DNA of 64,000 nucleotides, from NCBI GenBank assembly GCA_951406725.2, contig OX597831.1:42966001-43030000 (forward strand), written 5' to 3'. Shown here in pieces: positions 32,534 to 62,690 of the stretch. Position 1 is the stretch's first letter; every line of letters starts with the position of its first letter. The stretch is from Octopus vulgaris. Lineage: Eukaryota. The notes under the pieces are model-generated. The model was not told the origin of the DNA, did not search any database, and was given only the letters and a program-made list of their open reading frames with translations. A program made the translations under genes and the position numbers.

Positions 32534-32574
<41 letters not shown>

Positions 32575-33043
32575 TCATCATCACCATCGTTTAATGTCTG
32601 CTTTCCATGCTAGCATGGGTTGGACGATTTGACTGAGGACCGGTGAACCAGATGGCTGTACCAGGCTCCAATCTGATCTGGCAGAGTTTCTACAGCTGGA
32701 TGCCCTTCCTAATGCCAACCACTCCAAGAGTGTAGTGGGTGCTTTTTATGTGCCAGTCAGGTGGTACTGGCAATGGCCACGCTCAAATGGTGCTTTTTAT
32801 GTGCCACCTGCACAGGAGCCAGTAAGGCAATGCAGGTAACGATCACGCTCGAATGGTGCTTTTTACATGCTACTGGCATGGAGGCCAGTTTGCTGCTCTG
32901 GCAACAATCACACCACACACACACACATGTACTCATGCATTAAGTTCTGTTTATCCAATTTGTTCCACCAAATATATGCATGTATGTGTAAGTATATATG
33001 GGTATATATGTGTGCGAGTGAGTATACATACATATATATATAT

Positions 33044-33083
<40 letters not shown>

Positions 33084-33159
33084 ATAATAATATTAGGGAG
33101 TAAATCCAAACTTACAGGGAAAAATTAGATTTAGGATTAAATCTAATTTTACAGTATAA

Positions 33160-33296
33160 ATATAAATTAAATTAGAGATAAAACCACTATTAGGCAAATC
33201 AAACATTATATTAATTAATTTTATTTCTATGTTTTGGTTTATGTTTTCACTGTTTGATTTGCCTAATAGTGGTTTTATCTCTAATTTAATTTATAT
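33160..33296. repeat. Perfect ~45-bp inverted repeat adjacent to the RTE tail
   Basis: TATAAATTAAATTAGAGATAAAACCACTATTAGGCAAATCAAACA and its reverse complement at 33251-33295. Confidence 0.9.
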
Positions 33297-33312
33297 ATAT
33301 ATATATATATAT

Positions 33313-36300
33313 ATCATCATCATCATCATCATCATCATCGTTTAACGTCCGCTTTCCGCGCTAGCACGGGTTGGACGGTTTGACCGGGTCTGGGAAGCCA
33401 GGGGCCGCTCCAGGCTCCAGTCTGAATCTGGCAGAGTTTCTACGGCTGGATGCCCTTCCTAACGCCAACCACTCCGTGAGTGGATTGGGTGCTTTTTACG
33501 TGCCACCTGCACAGGGGCCGGAGGGTCCGGCATCGTCACGATGGGTTCGAGCATTTTAACGTGTCAGCGGCACGGGGGCAACGAGGTCCGGGGTACTTTG
33601 GGGATCGGGGTACTTTGGGGATCTAGGGTACTTTGGGGATCCGGGGTACTTAGAATGGGTAGGGGGTATGTGGAATTGCTGCAGAAAGCAGCCCGGGTCT
33701 TTGTAGTCACAGCATATCTCCAGAGATCTCGGTCCTTCGCCATTGCCTCAGTGAGGCCCAATGCTCTGAGGTCATGCTTGACCACCTCATCCCATGTCTT
33801 CCTGGGTCTACCTCTCCCCCTGATACCTTCAACTGTTTGGGAGTGGCACTTCTTCACACATCTCTCTTCATCCATCCGCAGCACATGACCATACCATCGC
33901 AAGCGTCGCTCTTGCACACCACATCTGATGCTTCTTATATCCATCATTTCTCTCAGGATACTTACACTCTGTTTTGCGTGCACACTGACACTACACATCC
34001 AGCGGATCATGCTAGCTTCATTTCTTTCAAGTCTACGCATGTCTTCTGCAGTCACAGCCCATGTTTCATTACCGTGAAGCATGGCAGTTCGCACACATGC
34101 ATCATACAATCTACCTTTTGCTCTGAGGGAGAGGCCTTTTGTTGCCAGTAGGGGTAGGAGCTTTCTGAACTTTGCCCAGGCTATTCGTATTCTAGTGGTG
34201 ATACTCTCTGTGCATCCACCTCCGCTACTAACTTGGTCTCCCAGGTAGCGGAAACTATCAACTACTTCTAGTTTCTCTCCCTGGAGTGTGATGGAATCTG
34301 TTTTCTGAGTGTCTGTTGTGTCTATTGTCCCTGTGCATCTGCCGCACATGAAAGCTATCTTATCTGTTAATTTCCCTTTAATGTTGCTGCACCTCTTATG
34401 TGTCCATAACTTACATTGGGTGCATCTTATGGAGTTTCTACCTGTACCTTTCCTACAGGTTGAGCAGGGCCACCTACCCGAGGGGATGTGTGTTGAGTAC
34501 CTCTTGCTGCTTACTAATACTTTGGTCTTTGCTACATTTATTCTAAGGCCCTTTGATTCCAACCCTTGCTTCCACACCCGAAATTTCTCTTCTAGTTCCG
34601 GTAGTGATTCTGCTATGAGAGCTAGGTCATCGGCATAGAGGAGCTCCCAGGGGCATCCCGTTTTGAATTCCTCTGTTATTGCCTGAAGGACTATGATGAA
34701 TAAAAGGGGACTGAGGGCTGAGCCCTGGTGCACACCTACTTCTACTCGGAATTCTTCACTATATTCGTTGCCAATCCTAACCTTGCTAACAGCCTCTCTG
34801 TATAGAGCCTGTACAGCCCTTATTAGCCATTCTTCAATCTCCAGTTTCCGCATCGACCACCAGATAAGGGAACGGGGAACCCTGTCAAAGGCTTTCTCCA
34901 AGTCTACAAAAGCTATGTAGAGGGGTTTATCTTTAGCTAGGTACTTCTCCTGCAGTTGTCGGACCAGGAATATAGCATCAGTGGTGCTTCTACCTGGTAC
35001 AAAACCGAACTGCATTTCATCTAAACAAATTCTCTCCCTAATGAGATTGGTTATGACCTTCTCTGAGACCTTCATCACCTGGTCCAACAGTTTGATACCT
35101 CTGTAGTTATTTCTATCTAGAGCATCACCCTTACCCTTGTAGCAGTTGACTATGGTACTGCTGCACCAGTCATTGGGTATGGCTCCATTGTGAACTACCT
35201 GGTTTACAATGCGGGTGACTATGGCATGGCCCACATAGCCAGCTGTTTTAAGCATCTCAGCAGTGATTCCTGATAGGCCAGGGGCTTTGCCTGGTTTCAT
35301 ATCCTTAATTGCCTTATCTACAAGGGAGCTGTCTATTCGGGTAGCTGGTCCCTCTACTGGGTCAACATTTGGCAGGCTCTCCTCCTCCCATTCATTCTCC
35401 TCATTCAGCAGTCTTTCATAATGGCTTCTCCAAGCCTCTTTCTTTTCACTAGTAGTAAAAGCAAGTGCCCCATCATCCATGCGGACACATTTCTCTCCTA
35501 TAACATCGCTATTTTCTCTGACACACTGTCTGGCAATCCGAAATACTTCAGCTCTTTGATCCTCGCGACGCTGGACATTGGCAAACTTCTTCTTTTCTGC
35601 TACATCTTTGGCAATGTATACCTGCCGCCCAGCCTCCCTTTTGGCTATCTGGTACAGTTCCCTGCTGCCCCCATCCTTCCAGGCTTTCCAGGCCCGTCTC
35701 TTTTCACAGATGGCTTTATCTACTGCACTATTCCACCACCACGTAATTCTAGGTCTGGAAGGGACTTTGCACCATCCACAAACTTGGTCTGTGGCACTCA
35801 ACAAGCTGTCCCGTAGGAATTCCCAGCTACCTTCTATGTCTGACGTCTGAAGCTCCTCTTCCCTCTCATCAAATTTCTTGATGAGTATGTCCCTAAATTT
35901 CTGACCATGCGAAGGGTTCTTTAGCCTCCAAATCCTTCTTTTCTGGATTGGTTTGTTTCTTGGAGTCCTTCTGGCCTCAAGCTTAAAGTCACTGATGATT
36001 AGTCTATGCTGAGGGATACATTCTTCACCCGGGAGGGTCTTTGTATTCAAGAGCAACCCTGCATCCCGTTGTCTGGTGAGGATGAAGTCTATTTGGCTAG
36101 CAGAGTCTCCTGACTGATAAGTTATAAGGTGGCAGACTGGCTTCTTGAAGTTAGTGTTGCAGATTGAAAGGTTACATGCATCACAGAATTCCAGTAGTCT
36201 AGTTCCCTCATCATTTCTGGTGCCAATACCATAGCCACCATGTACCCCAGTGAAGATACCCGATTCCCGCCCAACATGCCCATTAAAATCTCCACCTACA

Positions 36301-36726
36301 AAGATGAGGTCCTTGTTACTAGTCTTTGAAGTAGCCTGCAGAAGGGTATCATAAAAGTTGTCCTTCTGATCATTTGGTAGTCCCGCTTGTGGGGCATAGG
36401 CTGAGATAATCATAGCTGTGCCACTCTGTAGGACCAACCTGAGCTTAAGCACTCTATCACAAACCCTGACAACCTCTATGACCTTATCTACCCATTCCTC
36501 CGCAAGGAGAATGCCTACACCCCCTACACCTTCCGCGTTACCTTGCCAGTAGAGTTTGTATCTAAGTGCCTTGCCCGTGAGGACCCTAGCTGAAGCATCT
36601 CTCCATCTTACCTCTTGTATGCAGCATACATCAACCTGTCTTCTCTCTAGCATCTCTACAATCTCACTAGACTTGCCTGTCAATGTACCAACATTGATAG
36701 TGCCAACTCTGAAAACTGGGAAGGAG
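33313..36726 (-). mobile_element. Young RTE LINE copy with 3' UTR and (GAT)n tail, inserted in a (TA)n tract
   Basis: Intact ORF. The 3' end reads ...GCGGAAAGCGGACGTTAAAC(GAT)n on the minus strand. (TA)n lies on both flanks. Confidence 0.9.
33564..36725 (-). CDS. RTE-clade LINE ORF: APE endonuclease + reverse transcriptase with an internal PHD finger; 5'-truncated but otherwise uninterrupted
   Basis: ORF track 33564..36875. APE motifs: GTINVGTL, CCIQEVRW, ISAYAPQ, GGDFNGHVG, QIDFIL. RT motifs: NYRGIKLL, QFGF, FVDLEKAFDRV, GVHQGSALSPLLF, YADD (34626-34637), FRYLG. RTE-type C-terminus: RRLRWYGHVLRM, GRGRPRKTW. The part above ~36726 is (TA)n/(CA)n flank read in frame. Confidence 0.95.
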   Translation of the reverse strand, partial: SFPVFRVGTINVGTLTGKSSEIVEMLERRQVDVCCIQEVRWRDASARVLTGKALRYKLYWQGNAEGVGGVGILLAEEWVDKVIEVVRVCDRVLKLRLVLQSGTAMIISAYAPQAGLPNDQKDNFYDTLLQATSKTSNKDLIFVGGDFNGHVGRESGIFTGVHGGYGIGTRNDEGTRLLEFCDACNLSICNTNFKKPVCHLITYQSGDSASQIDFILTRQRDAGLLLNTKTLPGEECIPQHRLIISDFKLEARRTPRNKPIQKRRIWRLKNPSHGQKFRDILIKKFDEREEELQTSDIEGSWEFLRDSLLSATDQVCGWCKVPSRPRITWWWNSAVDKAICEKRRAWKAWKDGGSRELYQIAKREAGRQVYIAKDVAEKKKFANVQRREDQRAEVFRIARQCVRENSDVIGEKCVRMDDGALAFTTSEKKEAWRSHYERLLNEENEWEEESLPNVDPVEGPATRIDSSLVDKAIKDMKPGKAPGLSGITAEMLKTAGYVGHAIVTRIVNQVVHNGAIPNDWCSSTIVNCYKGKGDALDRNNYRGIKLLDQVMKVSEKVITNLIRERICLDEMQFGFVPGRSTTDAIFLVRQLQEKYLAKDKPLYIAFVDLEKAFDRVPRSLIWWSMRKLEIEEWLIRAVQALYREAVSKVRIGNEYSEEFRVEVGVHQGSALSPLLFIIVLQAITEEFKTGCPWELLYADDLALIAESLPELEEKFRVWKQGLESKGLRINVAKTKVLVSSKRYSTHIPSGRWPCSTCRKGTGRNSIRCTQCKLWTHKRCSNIKGKLTDKIAFMCGRCTGTIDTTDTQKTDSITLQGEKLEVVDSFRYLGDQVSSGGGCTESITTRIRIAWAKFRKLLPLLATKGLSLRAKGRLYDACVRTAMLHGNETWAVTAEDMRRLERNEASMIRWMCSVSVHAKQSVSILREMMDIRSIRCGVQERRLRWYGHVLRMDEERCVKKCHSQTVEGIRGRGRPRKTWDEVVKHDLRALGLTEAMAKDRDLWRYAVTTKTRAAFCSNSTYPLPILSTPDPQSTLDPQSTPIPKVPRTSLPPCR

Positions 36727-37063
36727 ATATATATATATATATATATATATAATGTATTACACACAAATACACACACATACACATATATATATATGTACTT
36801 ATGCACATTCATATGTATATGTGGTGTTACAGCTTTTTTTCTGTTTTCTATATTAGATATACACACATTATACAAAGACTCACATTATGGCTTTTACAAT
36901 AAAGGACGACTCAATAGCAGGCTGGAACTTTGAAGTCACTATCAACTTCCTTCTTGTAACCAGTATAATACATAAGTATTCCACAAAAAGTTATTAATTC
37001 TTTGGTTTAATGTTACTTTGTTTCATTATAGTTAACATAAAGATAAACATTAATATATATATA

Positions 37064-37690
37064 CAGGGTGTTCAGACTAACATTATTTACATTGGATGGA
37101 TACGTGTCCTCATCTTGTTTGCTGTTACCATAACGTTTTGGCTGATATACTCTCCAGCCTTCTTCAGATGTCCTGGTGGAATTTTGAACCCGACTCAGTG
37201 TTCTCATTCACCTAAAGAAGGCTGGAGAGTAAATCAGCCGAAACATTGTCGTAACAACAAACAAGATGAGGACACATATCCGTCCAATGTAAATAATTTA
37301 CAGAATTTCTCATCTCTAAAATATAGAACAGTATGTTCAGACTAAATTTAACAGATTTTATGGAAGGTAAATAAACAATATCCTATTAAAAAAATATCAA
37401 CTAGATTACGGCCAGGAGATAGCAGTTACTTAAAGTAGTCACTCTCAGCTACTTCCACAGCCTCAAGATGGCTCTGGAATCTGGTACATGCATTCTTCAT
37501 TATGTCCATGGGATGTTCTTTGAACACTTTGATCTGGGACACTAACTCAACCTTAATGTTGCAGGCAAAACATGCCCTACACATAGTAATCCATGGAATT
37601 ATAATCAGGAGGGTTAGGAGGCTACAAATTGGGGCTGATGAAGTCATAGAAATTCTCCATGCACCACATCTGACTCTTTCTGGAGGTATG
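37064..37690 (-). mobile_element. Decayed Tc1/mariner-superfamily (maT-like) transposon 3' end, TIR interrupted by an insertion
   Basis: Minus strand reads NFYDFISPNL*PPNPPDYNSMDYYV*G (WPPNSPDLNPLDY-type motif) and ACTRFQSHLEAV. The terminus is TA|CAGGGTGTTCAGACTAA. Confidence 0.7.
37081..37333. mobile_element. Penelope-like inverted fragment with minimal hammerhead-like cores and a 12-bp target duplication
   Basis: Arms ~37082-37168 and ~37211-37297 are reverse complements. Each carries CT(G/A)AAGAAGGCTG..CAGCC(G/A)AAAC. TGTTCAGACTAA is repeated at 37069-37080 and 37334-37345. Confidence 0.72.
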
Positions 37691-38562: not shown

Positions 38563-40416
38563 CCCAATAGACTTCTTTCAGTTTCAGTCCTCTCACGAGG
38601 ATCTAGTCAGTACCCAGAGCTAGCTGAAGATACTTGAAGGTACTACTCAGTCAAAATTGATGGAGGACTCTTTCATCCATCCATCCATCCATATATATAT
38701 ATATATACACGTTCATGTATGATTGCACACACATGCACATCATCATCCTTGATCTACACCTGCTTTTCCATGCTGGTAATGAATCTGATGTGTTTTCAGA
38801 GGCAGTGTTTTACGACCAGATGCTCTTCCTGTTACTAACCAATTTAGTCATGTTCTAAAACACAGGAATATGTTATATCTATCCTAAAATAATGGAGATG
38901 CACAGTACACCTCCCTCATGTGTGTGTATGTGTGTGTGTGTGTTTATGTGTATGTGTGTGCGGGACAGAGAGAGAGAGAGCATGCGTTTATGTGAGGTAA
39001 GTATTTGTGACAATAATTTTACACATACACACCAAATTTACTACATAACATTTTCATACATACCAATATATGCACAACACATACACATGCATACATACAC
39101 ACATTCCTGACTCACACAAATTAGCACAGATGGACAGATACATGTACACAGAAATTCACATGCATCTACACTTATATAAATGCAAAGTTAAACGACACCA
39201 GAACATTTAGCGATAAATTATCTCTTGACTGCCAGATGATGAGAAATAATTGCAAATATCAAAGCAATGTGTAAAGAGGTACATTGAGCTAATGGAGTCA
39301 TAGGTAGGATGTAGGAGTCGGGGAAGGAGTAGAGGTCAGTGAGTGACTGGGTGTAGTGGTGTGTGTGAGAGAGAGAGAAAGAGGGAGGGAGAATGAGAGG
39401 AAGGAGAGTGAGGTCTGTGAAGATAAGCGACTGATAATTCTTGTATGCAAATACAAAAAAATGAATGGCAGGCATGGCTGTGTAGTTAAGAAGCTCGCTT
39501 TGTAACCTCATGGTTTTGAGATCAGTTCCATGGCATGATCCTTTTGGAGAGTGTCTTCTAGTATAACCCGAGACCAACCAATGCCTTGGTGAGTGAATTT
39601 AGGAGACAGAAACTCTGTGGGTGGATGGATGGATGGACAGACAGACAGACATGTAGATAGATAGATAGATAGACAGACAGACATGTAGATAGATAGATAG
39701 ATATGAATAGATAGATAGATATGAGTTCATGGCTCACAGGACGGCCTGCTGTGCTAACCTTGGATCGTAGAGTGACTCACTGTTCTTGAGGAGACCTGTT
39801 GAATCAAGTTCGTCAACATCAAAAATTCAAATGGTAATTGTAGTTAAGACACCAGTGCTGGTGATACGTAAAAGCACTGTTCAAGTGTGGCAGTGACTAG
39901 TGTCGCCTGACTGGCGTCCGTGTCGGTGACATGTAAAAGCACCAACCGATCGTGGCTGTTTGCCAGCCTGCACTGGCTCCTGTGCTGGTGGCATGTAAAA
40001 AACACCCACTATACTCACGGAGTGGTTGGCATTAGGAAGGGCATCCAGCTGTAGAAACACTGCCAAATAAGACTGGAGCCTGGTGCAGCCTCCATGGCTT
40101 ACCAGACCCCGGTCGAACCGTCCAACCCATGCCAGCATGGAAAACGGACGTTAAATGATGATGATGATATGAATAGATAGATAGATATAAAGATAGATAG
40201 ATAGATATGAATAGATAGACTCATAAGGATGGAGATTAACCCAGTTTACATAGCATCTAAGTGACTGAGAATACAACACTCTCCCACTGAATAGGACACC
40301 AGTCCACCACAGGGTTAACTTCCCAGCTATTGTTGGAGCTCATTTACTGCAGAGCGGACTGGATCAAGAACCTAATGCATCTTATAATCACAAGCACAAT
40401 ATCCTAACCACCATGC

Positions 40417-49439: not shown

Positions 49440-50070
49440 TATCATCATCATCATCGTTTAATGTCCACTTTCTATGCTAGCATGGGTTGGACAATTTGAC
49501 AGAGGACTGGCAAACCAGATGGCTGCACCAGGCTCAAATCTGATCTGACAGAGTTTCTACAGCTGGATGCTCTTCCTAATGCCAACCACTCCGGGAGTGT
49601 GGTGGGTGCTTCTATGTGCCACCGGCATGAGGGCCAGTCAGGCGGTACTGGCAAGGGCCATGCTCAAATGGTGTTTTTTTTTACGTGCCACCTGCACAGG
49701 AGCCAGTCCAGCGGCACTGGCAATGACCTCACTTAAATGCTTTTTCACGTGCCACCGACACAAGTGCCAGTAAGGCAATGCTGGTAACAATCACGCTCAA
49801 ATGGTGCATTTTTACGTGCCACCGGTATGGAAGCCAGTTTGCTGTTCTGGCAATGATCATGCTCGGATGGTGCTCTTAGCACTCCACTAGCATGGATGCC
49901 AGTCATCAAATTTGATTTCAATTTCGATTTCGATTTCTCTTGCCTCAACAGGTCTTTGCAAGCAAAGTTTAGTGTCCAAAAAGCTCTGCTTGCGAAGACC
50001 TATTGAGGGAAGTGAAATCGAAGTAAAATTCAATGACTGGCATCCGTGCTAGTGGAGTGCTAAGCTCTTT
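49440..50070 (-). mobile_element. RTE 3'-UTR-only copy with internal ~70-bp repeats
   Basis: Same terminal tail as the RTE, plus repeated GGTGCTTTTTACGTGCCACC units. Related copies lie at about 32571-32910, 39725-40170, 57080-57310 and 23555-23770. Confidence 0.75.
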
Positions 50071-50444: not shown

Positions 50445-51070
50445 TATAGGCCATCTGCAGTCCAGTTTGGAGTGGTATCGTCTTTAGCATACTGCATCTC
50501 ATGGACTGAGATGGTGGAGATCCTCATCTTTGCATGGAGATGTGCAAGATTGAAGTGTCCACCATCCGAGCGATAGCACGTGTTGTAGAAGGCAAGCCTG
50601 GTGGGATTTCATTGAACATGGTGGCCATGTACAAAGAGAAACAGGTTTGTGCAGGACAAATCTTTACTTAAGACCCCCAAAGATGGAAAACAGGTCTGTG
50701 AGGGCATGCCATCATGAAGGTGGCGGAGCAGAGCAATGAAGTCCCCCGGACATCCAAACCGAGCAAGGATGGCCCACAATGCAGAATGGGGGACCTTGTC
50801 AAAGGCTTTCTTTAGATCCCAGAAGATTAACATTGCAGGCTGTTATTGTTCTTGACACTTCTCATGAAGTTGGTGGGCACAAAAGATCATGTCAATTGTG
50901 CCTTGAGAGGGTTGAAAGCCACACTGGGACTCAGGAAGGACATCTTCCACAAGGATGAGGAGGCAAATGAGTGGGATATGGGTGAATATCTTGCTTGGAA
51001 TACTCAGGAGTGAGATGCCCTGATAGTTGTTGCAATCCTCTTGGTCTCTCTTCTTGTAGATGGTGAGGAT
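50445..51070 (-). pseudogene. Decayed RTE (BovB-like) reverse transcriptase fragment, a different family
   Basis: Translation includes TIYKK.D..DCNNYQGISLLS..VLPESQCGF..GTIDMIF..QLHEKCQEQ and DLKKAFDKV..LWAILARFGCP..LHDGM. Confidence 0.85.
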
Positions 51071-56500: not shown

Positions 56501-58346
56501 ATGAACTAAATACTTACTACAAAACAATTTATCTGACACTTGCAATTCCATCACCCTTCAACCCTAAAGGTCAACATTATAAATTGTTTTAAAACAGGAG
56601 CAGCACTATAAAACTTATGAGTACTTCACTGGTCTGCAATTCCAAGCCAAACTCCTTTCAAGAGAGTAATTGTGACATGGAAGGACAATGCTAGACTGAC
56701 TTTCCCCATACACATTACACGAAGGAGAGGTCACCTGCAGCAGCCCTTTACAACCCAATAGTTTACAGGATTTCTATCAACAGGGAACTTGAGAATAACA
56801 GAAGCTATTTTAATTAACAAGTACAGCCCAGGGAATTAATAACAGATCTGAAGTGCATACAGCTGATTGGATACAGAAGCAATACAAACCAACCATTCAA
56901 ACACACACACAACAGAACAGAGAAATCAGCTATCAACATCCTTTCTCTGTAAATTTCCTGAAGAAGGGGCTCTAAGTCAGAAATATTGAAATACCAGTTA
57001 ATAGTACTAACCATTGACCTATATTATTAATTTTCATGACTTGTGTTATTTTGGCTTTAAAGAAAAAAAATTCTTTATTGGCAGTACCGCCTGACTGACC
57101 CTCGTGCCAGTGGCACATAAAAGCACCCACTACACTCTCGGAGTGGTTGGCATTAGGAAGGGCATCCAGCTGTAGAAACTCTGCCAGATCAGATTGGAGC
57201 CTGGTGCAGCCATCTGGTTCACCAGTCCTCAGTCAAATCGTCCAACCCATGCTAGCATGGAAAGCAGACGTTAAACGATGATGATGATGATAATGATTAT
57301 GATGATGATATCTGCAAATGCTTCATGAAAACAATTTCACTATGCTTAGTCGCATTTCATCCATCTTTAGGTTCTGAGTTCAAATCTTGCCAAGGTTGAC
57401 TTTGCTTTTCATCCTTTTGAGGGGGTCAATAAAATAAATACCAGTTGAACACTGGGGTTGATGTAATTGACTTATCTGCTCCCCTGAAATATCTGACTTT
57501 GTGTCAAAATTTGAAATCAGTATTTTACTGAGAGGGCTCAGAATGAGAGAAGAAGGGAAGGTCTTACAAGCAGACAACCACAGCTCTTGGTAGTTTATGT
57601 GGAAGTTCTCACATATTCATTCAGCTTAATGTAGCACACTCAAAAATCTTTCTTTCCCTCCATCAGCAAATTCTTTTATTACACAAAAAGGGACCGCATG
57701 TTTAATACTTACAAAAACAAAGATAAACTCCAAATTTCTACCACTTTCTACAATGAGTATTCAGTTGTTCAATCAACTGAACAACTTATTCTTTGAACTA
57801 TAATAGTAAAAGTGGCTGAGTATTCCACAGACAGAGGTACTCTTAACACAGTCGTCTAACAGAATTAGTGTGGCACAATGTGACAAGACAGTGGACCATT
57901 CAAGTCTAGGTACAAACCATTCAACACACTTCTGCACAAGGTTTGCACAAGTCTTGTCTCCCCAGTTCCATTCACAAGTTTTGTGACTAAAACTGGCAAA
58001 CAGAAACTGGAGAAGCCTGACTGTGTGGCACCTGGGATGAGAGTTTTCTATTATAGCCCCAGAATGACCAAAACCTCATAAGTGGATTTGGTAAATGAAA
58101 ACTGAAAGAGGCTCACCATACCCATTGTATATATATTTGTGTGTGTGTGGTGTTTGTTGCACACCACTTGACAACCAATGTGGGTTTGTTTACATTCCCA
58201 TAACATAACACTTTGACAGAAGGGACTAACAGAATAAGTCCCAGACTTTAAAAAAAGAAAACAACAACCGCTGGGGGTTGATTTGTTCTACTAAAACCAC
58301 TCCAGCTTGGCCACAGTCCAAATACTGAAACAAATAAAAGACAAAA

Positions 58347-59929: not shown

Positions 59930-60585
59930 AGGCAGTGAAACATGGACTGTGACTACTGTGGACATGCATAGAATAGAAAGAAATGAAGCTACTATGCTCT
60001 GCTGGATGTGTAATGTCAGTGTGCATACACGACAGAGTGTAAATGCCCTGAGAGAAAAGTTGGACATAAGAAGCATCAGATGTGGTGAGCAAGAGAGACA
60101 ACTGCACTGGTCTGGTCATGCGTTGCATATAGATGAGGACGGCTGTGTGACGAAATGTCACACCCTAACAGTGGGAGGAACCTGTGGAAGAGGTAGACCC
60201 AGGAAGACATGAGATGAGGTGGTGAAGCAGGACCTTCAAACGCTGGGCCTCACCGAGGCAATGACAAGCGGCCGAGACCTTTGGAGATATGTTGTGATTG
60301 AGGAGACCCAGCAAGTCAAGTGAGATTGTAGCTGTGGCTGACGTCAGTGTCACATGACTGGCCCATTTAAAAGTACCCTTCAATCGTTGGGCAATATGCT
60401 GTGTTTGAGAAGACCTGTTTAGTGAAATTGTAGTCATGGCCAATGCCAGTGCCACCTGACTGTTACCTGTGCCAGTGGCACATAAAAAGTACCATTTTAG
60501 TGTGGTCGATGCCAGTGCTGTCTCACTGGCCCCCATGTCAGTGACATGTAAAAAGCACCCACTACACTCTTGGAGTGGTTGGCCT
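59930..60585 (+). mobile_element. 3' fragment of an RTE related to the 33.5-36.7 kb element
   Basis: Translation includes DMHRIERNEATMLCWMCNVSV..IRSIRCG..GRGRPRKT. Followed by 3' UTR repeats. Confidence 0.85.
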
Positions 60586-61885: not shown

Positions 61886-62690
61886 GATCATCATCATCAT
61901 CATCATCATCGTTTAACGTCAGCTTTCCATGCTGGCATGGGTTTGACGGTTTGACTGAGGGCTGGCGAGCCAGAAGCCTGCACCAGTCTCCAATCTGATC
62001 TGGCAAAGTTTCTACAGCTGGATGCCCTTCCTAACACCAATCACTCCAAGAGGGTAGTGGGTGCTTTTACATGCCTCTGGCATGACGGCCAGCCAGGCGG
62101 TACTGGCATCAGCCACGCTCAGATGGTGCTTTTTACATGCCATCTGCACAGAAGCCAGTCCAGCGGCACTGGCAACAACCATGCTCGAATGGTATTTTTT
62201 TATGTGCCATCGGCATGGGAGCCAGTCAGCAGCCCTGGTAACGATCACACTCAAATGGTGCTTTTAACATTCCACTGACACAGGTGCCAATTAGGTGGTA
62301 CCATCATTGGCCACAACAGTGATTTCACTTGCCTCAACAGATCCTTGCAAGCATAGTTTATTGTCCATTGATTGAAGGGTACTCTTAAAGGGGCTGGTTA
62401 TACAGCACTGGCATAGGCCATGATTACGGTCTCACTTGGCTTCCTGGGTCTTCTCAAGCACAGATTATCTCCAAAGGTCTTGCTCACTTATCATTGCCTC
62501 AGTGAGGCCCAATGTTTGAATGTCGTGCTTCACCACCTCATTCCAGGTCTTCCTGAGTCTACCTCTTCCACAGGTTCCCTCAACTGCTACGGTGTGACAC
62601 TTTTTCACACAGCTGTCTTCATCCATTCATAGCACATGACCATGCCAGCACAGTTGTCTCTCTTGCACACCACATCTGATGCTTCTTATA
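61886..62690 (-). mobile_element. 5'-truncated RTE copy (ORF end + 3' UTR + (GAT)n tail)
   Basis: 62440-62690 matches the RTE ORF end at about 33710-33940. The tail (ATC)nGTTTAACGTC is at ~61890. Confidence 0.85.

What the first reader, a model, noticed from the sequence alone, without database searches (positions are those of the whole stretch)
34335..34472. PHD zinc finger inserted inside the reverse transcriptase of an intact RTE LINE
Seen: the minus-strand ORF contains W-P-CSTC-x10-CTQC-KLWT-H-KR-C-x14-CGRC, a complete C4HC3 pattern with Trp two residues before the His. It lies between the post-YADD motif (GLRINVAKTKVL) and LEVVDSFRYLG, where RTE RTs normally have only a short linker. Known: C4HC3 defines PHD fingers, many of which read histone H3 tails, and in LINEs PHD fingers are mainly known from ORF1 of CR1/L2-type clades. 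Inference: this single-ORF element may carry a chromatin-reading or protein-interaction module on the polymerase that could steer integration. I cannot confirm that this is undescribed.
Basis: partly seen in the sequence, partly recalled or inferred. Interest (0 to 1): 0.8.

Follow-up and report, generated by a model that had tools for sequence, protein, structure and literature searches.

The report
PHD finger inside a LINE polymerase
A widespread family of jumping genes carries a conserved zinc-finger module (a PHD finger) in the middle of its copying enzyme, in the loop that a related enzyme uses to grip its target DNA, so it likely helps the element hold on to DNA or chromatin where it inserts.

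Summary
Window 34472-34335 (-) encodes a C4HC3 PHD finger (Pfam PHD 27.7 bits, cut-off 24) inside the RT of an RTE-type LINE, probably from an octopus. It is an insert of about 62 residues between RT motifs 6 and 7. It marks a whole lineage: all eight ligands are kept in 119 of 121 aligned relatives, some families carry two fingers, and one origin is not rejected. The site aligns with R2 loop 6a, which contacts upstream target DNA. The finger is Pygopus-like: the aromatic and hydrophobic pocket residues are kept, the two acidic ones are lost, and it is basic (mean +6.7). Best reading: it likely docks the enzyme on target DNA or nucleosome (0.40); H3K4me reading is the main rival (0.25). No binding is shown. 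One correction: the frame is unbroken, but this copy is 5'-truncated with no start codon before the endonuclease. Eight literature searches found no description; Repbase was not searchable, and Pfam annotation already lists both domains together. An earlier, untested scan note describes a different finger module inside a Perkinsus RTE-type RT.

The parts
34335..34472 (-). PHD finger (C4HC3, Pygopus-like), residues 751-796 of the ORF product
34293..34508 (-). Whole loop between RT motifs 6 and 7 (residues about 739-810): variable linker, PHD finger, variable linker; the position of R2 loop 6a
   Evidence: spacing; alignment to R2Bm; linker conservation 0.41-0.45 against 0.66 for the finger; pLDDT 73 and 65 in the linkers against 85-92 in the finger
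35979..36722 (-). APE-type endonuclease domain (residues about 1-248); 5' end cut just before its first motif
   Evidence: Pfam Exo_endo_phos; fold matches to APE and L1 endonucleases, Z about 24
34509..35360 (-). RT core up to motif 6, including YADD at residues 696-699
   Evidence: Pfam RVT_1 E 1.3e-29; profile match to L1 ORF2p and R2 proteins
33690..34292 (-). RT motif 7 (FRYLG), thumb and C-terminal helical region
   Evidence: model helices from residue 838 to 1014; aligns to finger-less relative P0268
33564..36722 (-). Single unbroken reading frame, 1052 codons to the stop, no Met before the endonuclease motif
33315..33563 (-). 3' UTR ending in a (GAT)n tail; its last 200 or so bases are shared with shorter repeats in the window
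36726..36752 (.). (TA)n tract at the 5' junction; a second (TA)n tract follows the tail at about 33292-33314, so no unique target-site duplication can be read

Best explanation
This is an RTE-type LINE whose reverse transcriptase carries a conserved PHD zinc finger in the loop between motifs 6 and 7, and the finger likely acts as an accessory grip on the target DNA or nucleosome next to the nick. Shown here: the domain, its position, its conservation across a lineage, its basic charge, and the alignment of the site with R2 loop 6a. Inferred: an ancestor of the lineage captured a Pygopus-like finger once, perhaps from the ORF1 of another LINE; the palm folds normally around it; during target-primed reverse transcription the loop faces upstream target DNA as in R2; and the conserved Lys/Arg, Gly, Asn, Ser and Trp face contacts that DNA, without needing a methylated histone tail.
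For: Position: a finger-less relative aligns through motifs 5-7 to R2Bm, and R2's DGHRKK (6a) falls directly after the motif-6 strand, where the insert begins. In R2Bm this loop reads the upstream target motif and its deletion blocks nicking (PMC10499050, passages); in two vertebrate R2s it wedges into upstream DNA (PMC11601368, passages). Charge: mean +6.7 over 102 dereplicated fingers, one neutral, none negative; Lys/Arg in 79, 86 and 96 of 102 at three positions. Constraint: eight ligands in 119 of 121; modal-residue conservation 0.66 in the finger, 0.72 in the RT core, 0.41-0.45 in the linkers. Fold: the full model has pLDDT 85-92 over the finger with RT strands continuing on both sides. 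Three full-length-type clusters (33, 45 and 21 members) carry two different fingers in tandem at the same site.
Against: No binding was measured. The best-conserved face is the histone-pocket face of Pygopus, which fits a peptide ligand as well. Related RTEs work without the insert, and 5 finger-less rows fall inside the finger-bearing branch. An ORF1 source for the finger was not tested directly: none of 116 top profile hits examined came from anything but these RTs.
Confidence: 0.4

Rival explanations
1. The finger is a true reader of methylated histone H3 lysine 4 and would steer insertion towards marked chromatin.
For: Pygopus fingers are the best sequence and fold matches. Four of five Pygo1 K4me-cavity positions (PMC2726290, passages) are kept: W366 as Trp in 99 of 102, Y341 as an aromatic residue in 97, V350 as Val in 93, A356 as Ser/Ala in 101; I357 is Ile in 93. 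A review calls this Trp invariant in K4me3 readers (PMC3241642, passages). PHF13, the best single-sequence match, is itself net basic (+4 by my count); that it binds H3K4me3 is recalled.
Against: D352 and E360 equivalents are acidic in only 1 and 5 of 102, and mutating E360 removes binding in Pygo1. The Pygo loop is two residues shorter. Pygo's histone face is acidic, whereas these fingers are basic overall. The window copy has Thr at the V350 position.
Confidence: 0.25
2. The finger binds the element's own RNA, standing in for part of the job of the ORF1 protein that these elements lack.
For: It is basic with an exposed Trp. PHD fingers of L2 and CR1 ORF1s also have Pygo chains as top hits in several subgroups (PMC4120745, passages with Table 1).
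Against: In R2 the 3' UTR is held by the N-terminal extension and thumb, while loop 6a contacts DNA. Finger-less RTEs also have a single ORF (P0268).
Confidence: 0.13
3. The pocket binds a non-histone host protein, or another part or copy of the LINE protein, to time or place integration.
For: The conserved pocket face without its acidic rim suits a neutral or acidic peptide. Some PHD fingers bind non-histone proteins (PMC3241642, abstract and passages), and L1 ORF2p binds host factors through surface sites (PMC7617806, passages).
Against: No partner is suggested by any search. The motif is constant across hosts as distant as octopus and catfish, which needs a very conserved partner.
Confidence: 0.12
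4. The finger is a tolerated passenger that is kept only because it has to fold for the palm to stay intact.
For: Finger-less relatives exist, some possibly by loss. A folding constraint alone would preserve the ligands and core.
Against: Non-ligand positions of the pocket face and neighbouring basic positions are strongly conserved (Gly 98, Asn 100, Trp 99, Lys/Arg 96 of 102), insert length is nearly fixed, and a tandem duplication was kept in full-length families. A clean deletion would be the easier outcome for a passenger.
Confidence: 0.1

Closest known systems
RTE-clade LINEs (single ORF, APE endonuclease + RT)
   Same: One ORF with APE and RT, short 3' UTR, simple-repeat tail, many copies with depth falling towards the 5' end; 36% identical over 1006 columns to a finger-less relative.
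   Different: About 62 extra residues forming a PHD finger between RT motifs 6 and 7.
R2 retrotransposon RT loop 6a (R2Bm, R2Tg, R2Pm)
   Same: An insertion at the same place in the RT, directly after the motif-6 strand (PMC10499050).
   Different: 6a is a short loop that reads a fixed rDNA motif in an element with a restriction-like endonuclease; here a whole zinc-finger domain of unrelated sequence sits there in an APE-type, dispersed element.
Pygopus PHD finger (Pygo1/Pygo2)
   Same: Y-P-C start, Val, small residue, Ile and Trp of the K4me cavity in register; best profile match E 1.6e-7; top fold match.
   Different: No EVND aspartate, no E360, shorter loops, net basic instead of acidic.
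PHD fingers of CR1/L2 ORF1 or N-termini (PMC4120745; Kapitonov and Jurka 2003 seen only as a reference line)
   Same: A PHD finger in a LINE, often with Pygo chains as top hit, proposed to help target the host genome.
   Different: Those lie upstream of the endonuclease, in ORF1 or at the start of the ORF; this one lies inside the polymerase domain of another clade.
RTE-2_OV of Octopus vulgaris (PMC9115989)
   Same: An octopus RTE with one long ORF.
   Different: Described with a C2H2 finger and a microsatellite straight after the ORF; 3 of 3 of its primers tried have no match in the window at up to 3 mismatches. It is probably another family; its sequence files could not all be seen.

Membership tests
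PHD finger | C4HC3 ligand pattern | tested here: met
   all eight ligands in 119 of 121 rows
PHD finger | Pfam PF00628 above its cut-off | tested here: met
   27.7 and 28.7 bits against 24 on isolated pieces; 20.2 on the whole protein
PHD finger | PHD fold | tested here: met
   66-aa model, pLDDT 76.9; the listed Foldseek rows are PHD-containing chains, best 4up0_A probability 1.00, TM 0.61, but E 0.03; best VIA-align row Pygo 3zpv Z 5.0, rmsd 3.5, 53 aligned. Scores are low, as expected for so small a domain.
PHD finger | Core aromatic residue two before the seventh ligand (usually Trp; recalled) | tested here: met
   Phe 67, Tyr 35 of 102; aromatic but never Trp
PHD finger | Binds two zinc ions | not testable with these tools
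   inferred from the ligand pattern only
Pygo-type H3K4me reader | Cavity walls and base W366, Y341, V350, A356 | tested here: met
   99, 97, 93 and 101 of 102 (Trp; aromatic; Val; Ser/Ala); register; roles
Pygo-type H3K4me reader | Acidic residues D352 and E360 | tested here: not met
   acidic in 1 and 5 of 102
Pygo-type H3K4me reader | Binds H3K4me peptide | not testable with these tools
   needs a binding assay
Unmodified-H3K4 reader PHD | Acidic cluster before the first Cys and no aromatic cage | tested here: not met
   the position three before the first Cys is Lys/Arg in 79 of 102 and the cage Trp is present
RTE-clade LINE | Single ORF with APE endonuclease and RT, short 3' UTR with simple-repeat tail | tested here: met
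RTE-clade LINE | RT groups with named RTE reference elements | not tested
   the tree holds unnamed relatives only; the clade label rests on architecture and on recalled motifs
R2 loop 6a | Insertion between RT motifs 6 and 7 | tested here: met
   through finger-less relative P0268 (E 0.0037 for that stretch); one search gives the same register
R2 loop 6a | Contacts upstream target DNA | not testable with these tools
   known for R2; inferred here

The most novel reading that the evidence does not exclude
A large RTE lineage has built a working histone-mark reader into the catalytic core of its reverse transcriptase and uses it to choose chromatin for insertion; the loop between motifs 6 and 7 is a swappable targeting socket of non-LTR RTs, holding a DNA-reading loop in R2 and one or two PHD fingers here.
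Probability: 0.25. Interest if true: 0.85.

Novelty: new variant of a known kind. Interest (0 to 1): 0.62.

Why it matters
How endonuclease-type LINEs meet chromatin is open; target choice is usually credited to the endonuclease alone (as stated in PMC10499050). A folded reader-type domain at the RT loop that grips target DNA in R2 gives a direct test, with finger-less and double-finger relatives as natural controls. It also shows that this RT loop tolerates a whole domain, which matters for engineering retrotransposon gene-insertion tools. The family is high-copy in its host and shares its 3' end with shorter repeats, so it may have shaped much of that genome.

Tried and rejected
Complex prediction of the finger with yeast H3 residues 2-32 and zinc gave 'no answer' (score 0.13, mark 0.34); it is no evidence either way. 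No whole genome was held, so copy number, insertion-site spectrum and a per-domain dN/dS could not be computed. Raw-read run X24 laid only 22 reads, nearly all on the 3' end, so it gave no depth or variant data. The variant table showed 40 rows and hid 344; only 3 shown sites fall in the finger (2 synonymous, 1 not), too few for the insert alone. C1, RING and FYVE alternatives scored below PHD and, for the window's finger, below their cut-offs. Rfam gave only microsatellite-driven miRNA matches far below gathering scores. The idea that this is RTE-2_OV was not supported; one search covered only part of that paper's supplements (four listed files not searched, two too large). A non-RT source of the finger was sought with the Atlas (unnamed short PHD clusters, no partner domains) and a profile search (all 116 examined were RT fragments); no donor was found. 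The L1 structure papers gave no passage on this loop. Earlier scan notes by sequence: none.

Full report
Observation. The minus strand holds one unbroken frame of 1052 codons (33567-36722) with an APE endonuclease and an RT. Pfam PHD scores 27.7 bits on an 80-residue piece against a cut-off of 24, and 20.2 on the whole protein. All 30 of 30 inserts from diverse relatives match the same family at E<=0.01. A model of the isolated domain (pLDDT 76.9) matches PHD-containing chains, led by Pygopus, though with weak scores (Foldseek E 0.03, TM 0.61; Z 5.0, rmsd 3.5 over 53 residues).

The element. Upstream of the first endonuclease motif the sequence passes into a (TA)n tract, and the first Met lies after that motif; full-length relatives have a Met-started leader. 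So the frame is undamaged but the copy is 5'-truncated. A 250-base 3' UTR ends in (GAT)n followed by another (TA)n tract. The host is probably an octopus: the best relative is an Octopus bimaculoides protein, 77% identical over residues 690-900. Two contig sets laid 84,685 and 2,340 pieces on the element, with depth falling from 3' to 5', the pattern of a high-copy LINE. Of the 40 best-supported differences shown (344 more hidden), 34 lie in the frame; 24 are synonymous, against 22-33% expected without selection (binomial p 7e-6). This copy therefore descends from a lineage under purifying selection. Only three of those sites lie in the finger.

The insert is a lineage trait. A search with residues 690-900 found 143 relatives among 1092 candidates and listed 120. 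All eight ligands are present in 119 of the 121 aligned rows; modal-residue conservation is 0.66 in the finger, 0.72 in the RT core and 0.41-0.45 in the two linkers. That search included the finger, so I repeated it with the RT core alone against 1.84 billion representatives. Among the best 150, 17 carry the finger, 14 of them with a measurable YADD-to-YLG spacing of 127-136; finger-less hits mostly have 65-70, and many of these are near-copies of one family. The insert is thus about 62 residues. A tree of the RT core (56 rows left after dropping short matches and dereplicating 209 at 68% identity; 39 with, 17 without the finger) puts all finger-bearing rows on one branch with support 98/93, together with 5 finger-less rows; three changes are needed. 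Forcing the finger-bearing rows and one degraded finger-less row into one clade is not rejected (p-AU 0.32; the group was chosen after seeing the tree). One gain, with or without later losses, fits. In metagenome loci, 42 of 44 that span both flanks have the finger (the query alignment came from finger-bearing proteins). A profile of the finger alone found 2346 proteins among 5758 candidates; of 116 top hits examined, 108 had RT motif 6 or 7 beside it by pattern and the other 8 were RT fragments on reading. Three long clusters (33, 45 and 21 members) have two different fingers in tandem at this site. Named hosts are few: octopus, the catfish Neoarius graeffei, and Mollusca for an Atlas cluster with 3 known phyla.

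Where it sits. The full-length model (pLDDT 89.5, pTM 0.87) has the motif-6 strand ending at 738, a confident finger (85-92), less certain linkers (73, 65), and the RT strands resuming at 810. It resembles L1 ORF2p overall (Z 25.6, rmsd 3.8 over 556 residues to 8c8j). A finger-less relative aligns to R2Bm through motifs 5-7, and R2's DGHRKK follows the motif-6 strand exactly where the insert begins. Those six residues are loop 6a, which reads the upstream target motif and is needed for nicking (PMC10499050, passages); it also wedges into upstream DNA in vertebrate R2s (PMC11601368, passages). That the finger faces target DNA is an inference from this: I could not measure it on coordinates, and the R2 authors considered 6a specific to R2.

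What kind of finger. Pygopus fingers are the best profile matches (E 1.6e-7). In Pygo1 the K4me cavity is formed by W366, Y341, D352, V350 and A356, with I357 and E360 also needed (PMC2726290, passages). Across 102 dereplicated inserts the equivalents are Trp 99, aromatic 97, acidic 1, Val 93, Ser/Ala 101, Ile 93 and acidic 5. The hydrophobic pocket is kept and its acidic rim is gone. The net charge averages +6.7 and is never negative; Pygo1 is about -6 by my count. The signature of unmodified-K4 readers, an acidic cluster before the first Cys (PMC3241642, passages), is absent. PHD fingers in L2 and CR1 ORF1s often have Pygo chains as top hits too (PMC4120745, passages), which suggests capture from another LINE; I did not find the donor.

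Mechanism. I put 0.40 on an accessory grip on target DNA or nucleosome through the basic face, 0.25 on true H3K4me reading, 0.13 on RNA binding, 0.12 on a non-histone protein partner and 0.10 on a passenger. Position and charge favour the first; the conserved pocket keeps the second alive. The two are not exclusive on a nucleosome. Two of six complete 3' ends in the window are followed by long (TA)n tracts, which cover 1.7% of the window; the sample is too small to call a preference.

Novelty. Eight full-text searches returned no paper describing a PHD finger inside an RTE RT; I saw their listings and read passages of the likeliest papers. The library lacks most subscription journals and Repbase reports, and automatic annotation already shows RVT_1 with PHD on many of these proteins, so a prior mention is quite possible. 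Verdict: real, conserved, a new variant of a known kind, with an untested but testable targeting role. Interest 0.62.

Noticed in passing
P0399, P0401, P0403: RTE families with two different PHD fingers in tandem between RT motifs 6 and 7, in long open frames and multi-member clusters.
   Followed up: partly
window 33315-33520 and copies near 32553-32860, 39918-40189, 49441-49720, 57099-57303, 61887-62120: The last 200 or so bases and the (GAT)n tail are shared with shorter repeats whose upstream parts are tandem units unlike this copy's UTR; contig depth there is about five times that of the ORF's 3' end. Likely a SINE-like partner or truncated sister subfamilies.
   Followed up: partly
window 59931-60311 (+), 62354-62689 (-), 50774-51070 (-): Three further RTE fragments, 66%, 55% and 43% identical in protein; none covers the finger.
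   Followed up: partly
window 33591-33645: Three 17-18-base tandem units inside the last codons of the frame; the tail they encode is modelled with low confidence and some contigs lack units.
   Followed up: no
P0004 / P0248 (XP_060771234.1, XP_060771233.1): Catfish gene models named slc22a21 isoforms contain this RTE's RT and finger joined to a transporter-like start; probably an annotation artefact or an exonised insertion.
   Followed up: no
window about 37130-37340 and 33100-33290: Two palindromic stretches flanking the element at some distance, possibly small inverted-repeat elements; they caused spurious miRNA matches.
   Followed up: no
P0079: A finger-bearing RTE protein is filed under a bacterial symbiont assembly, likely host DNA carried into that assembly.
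   Followed up: no
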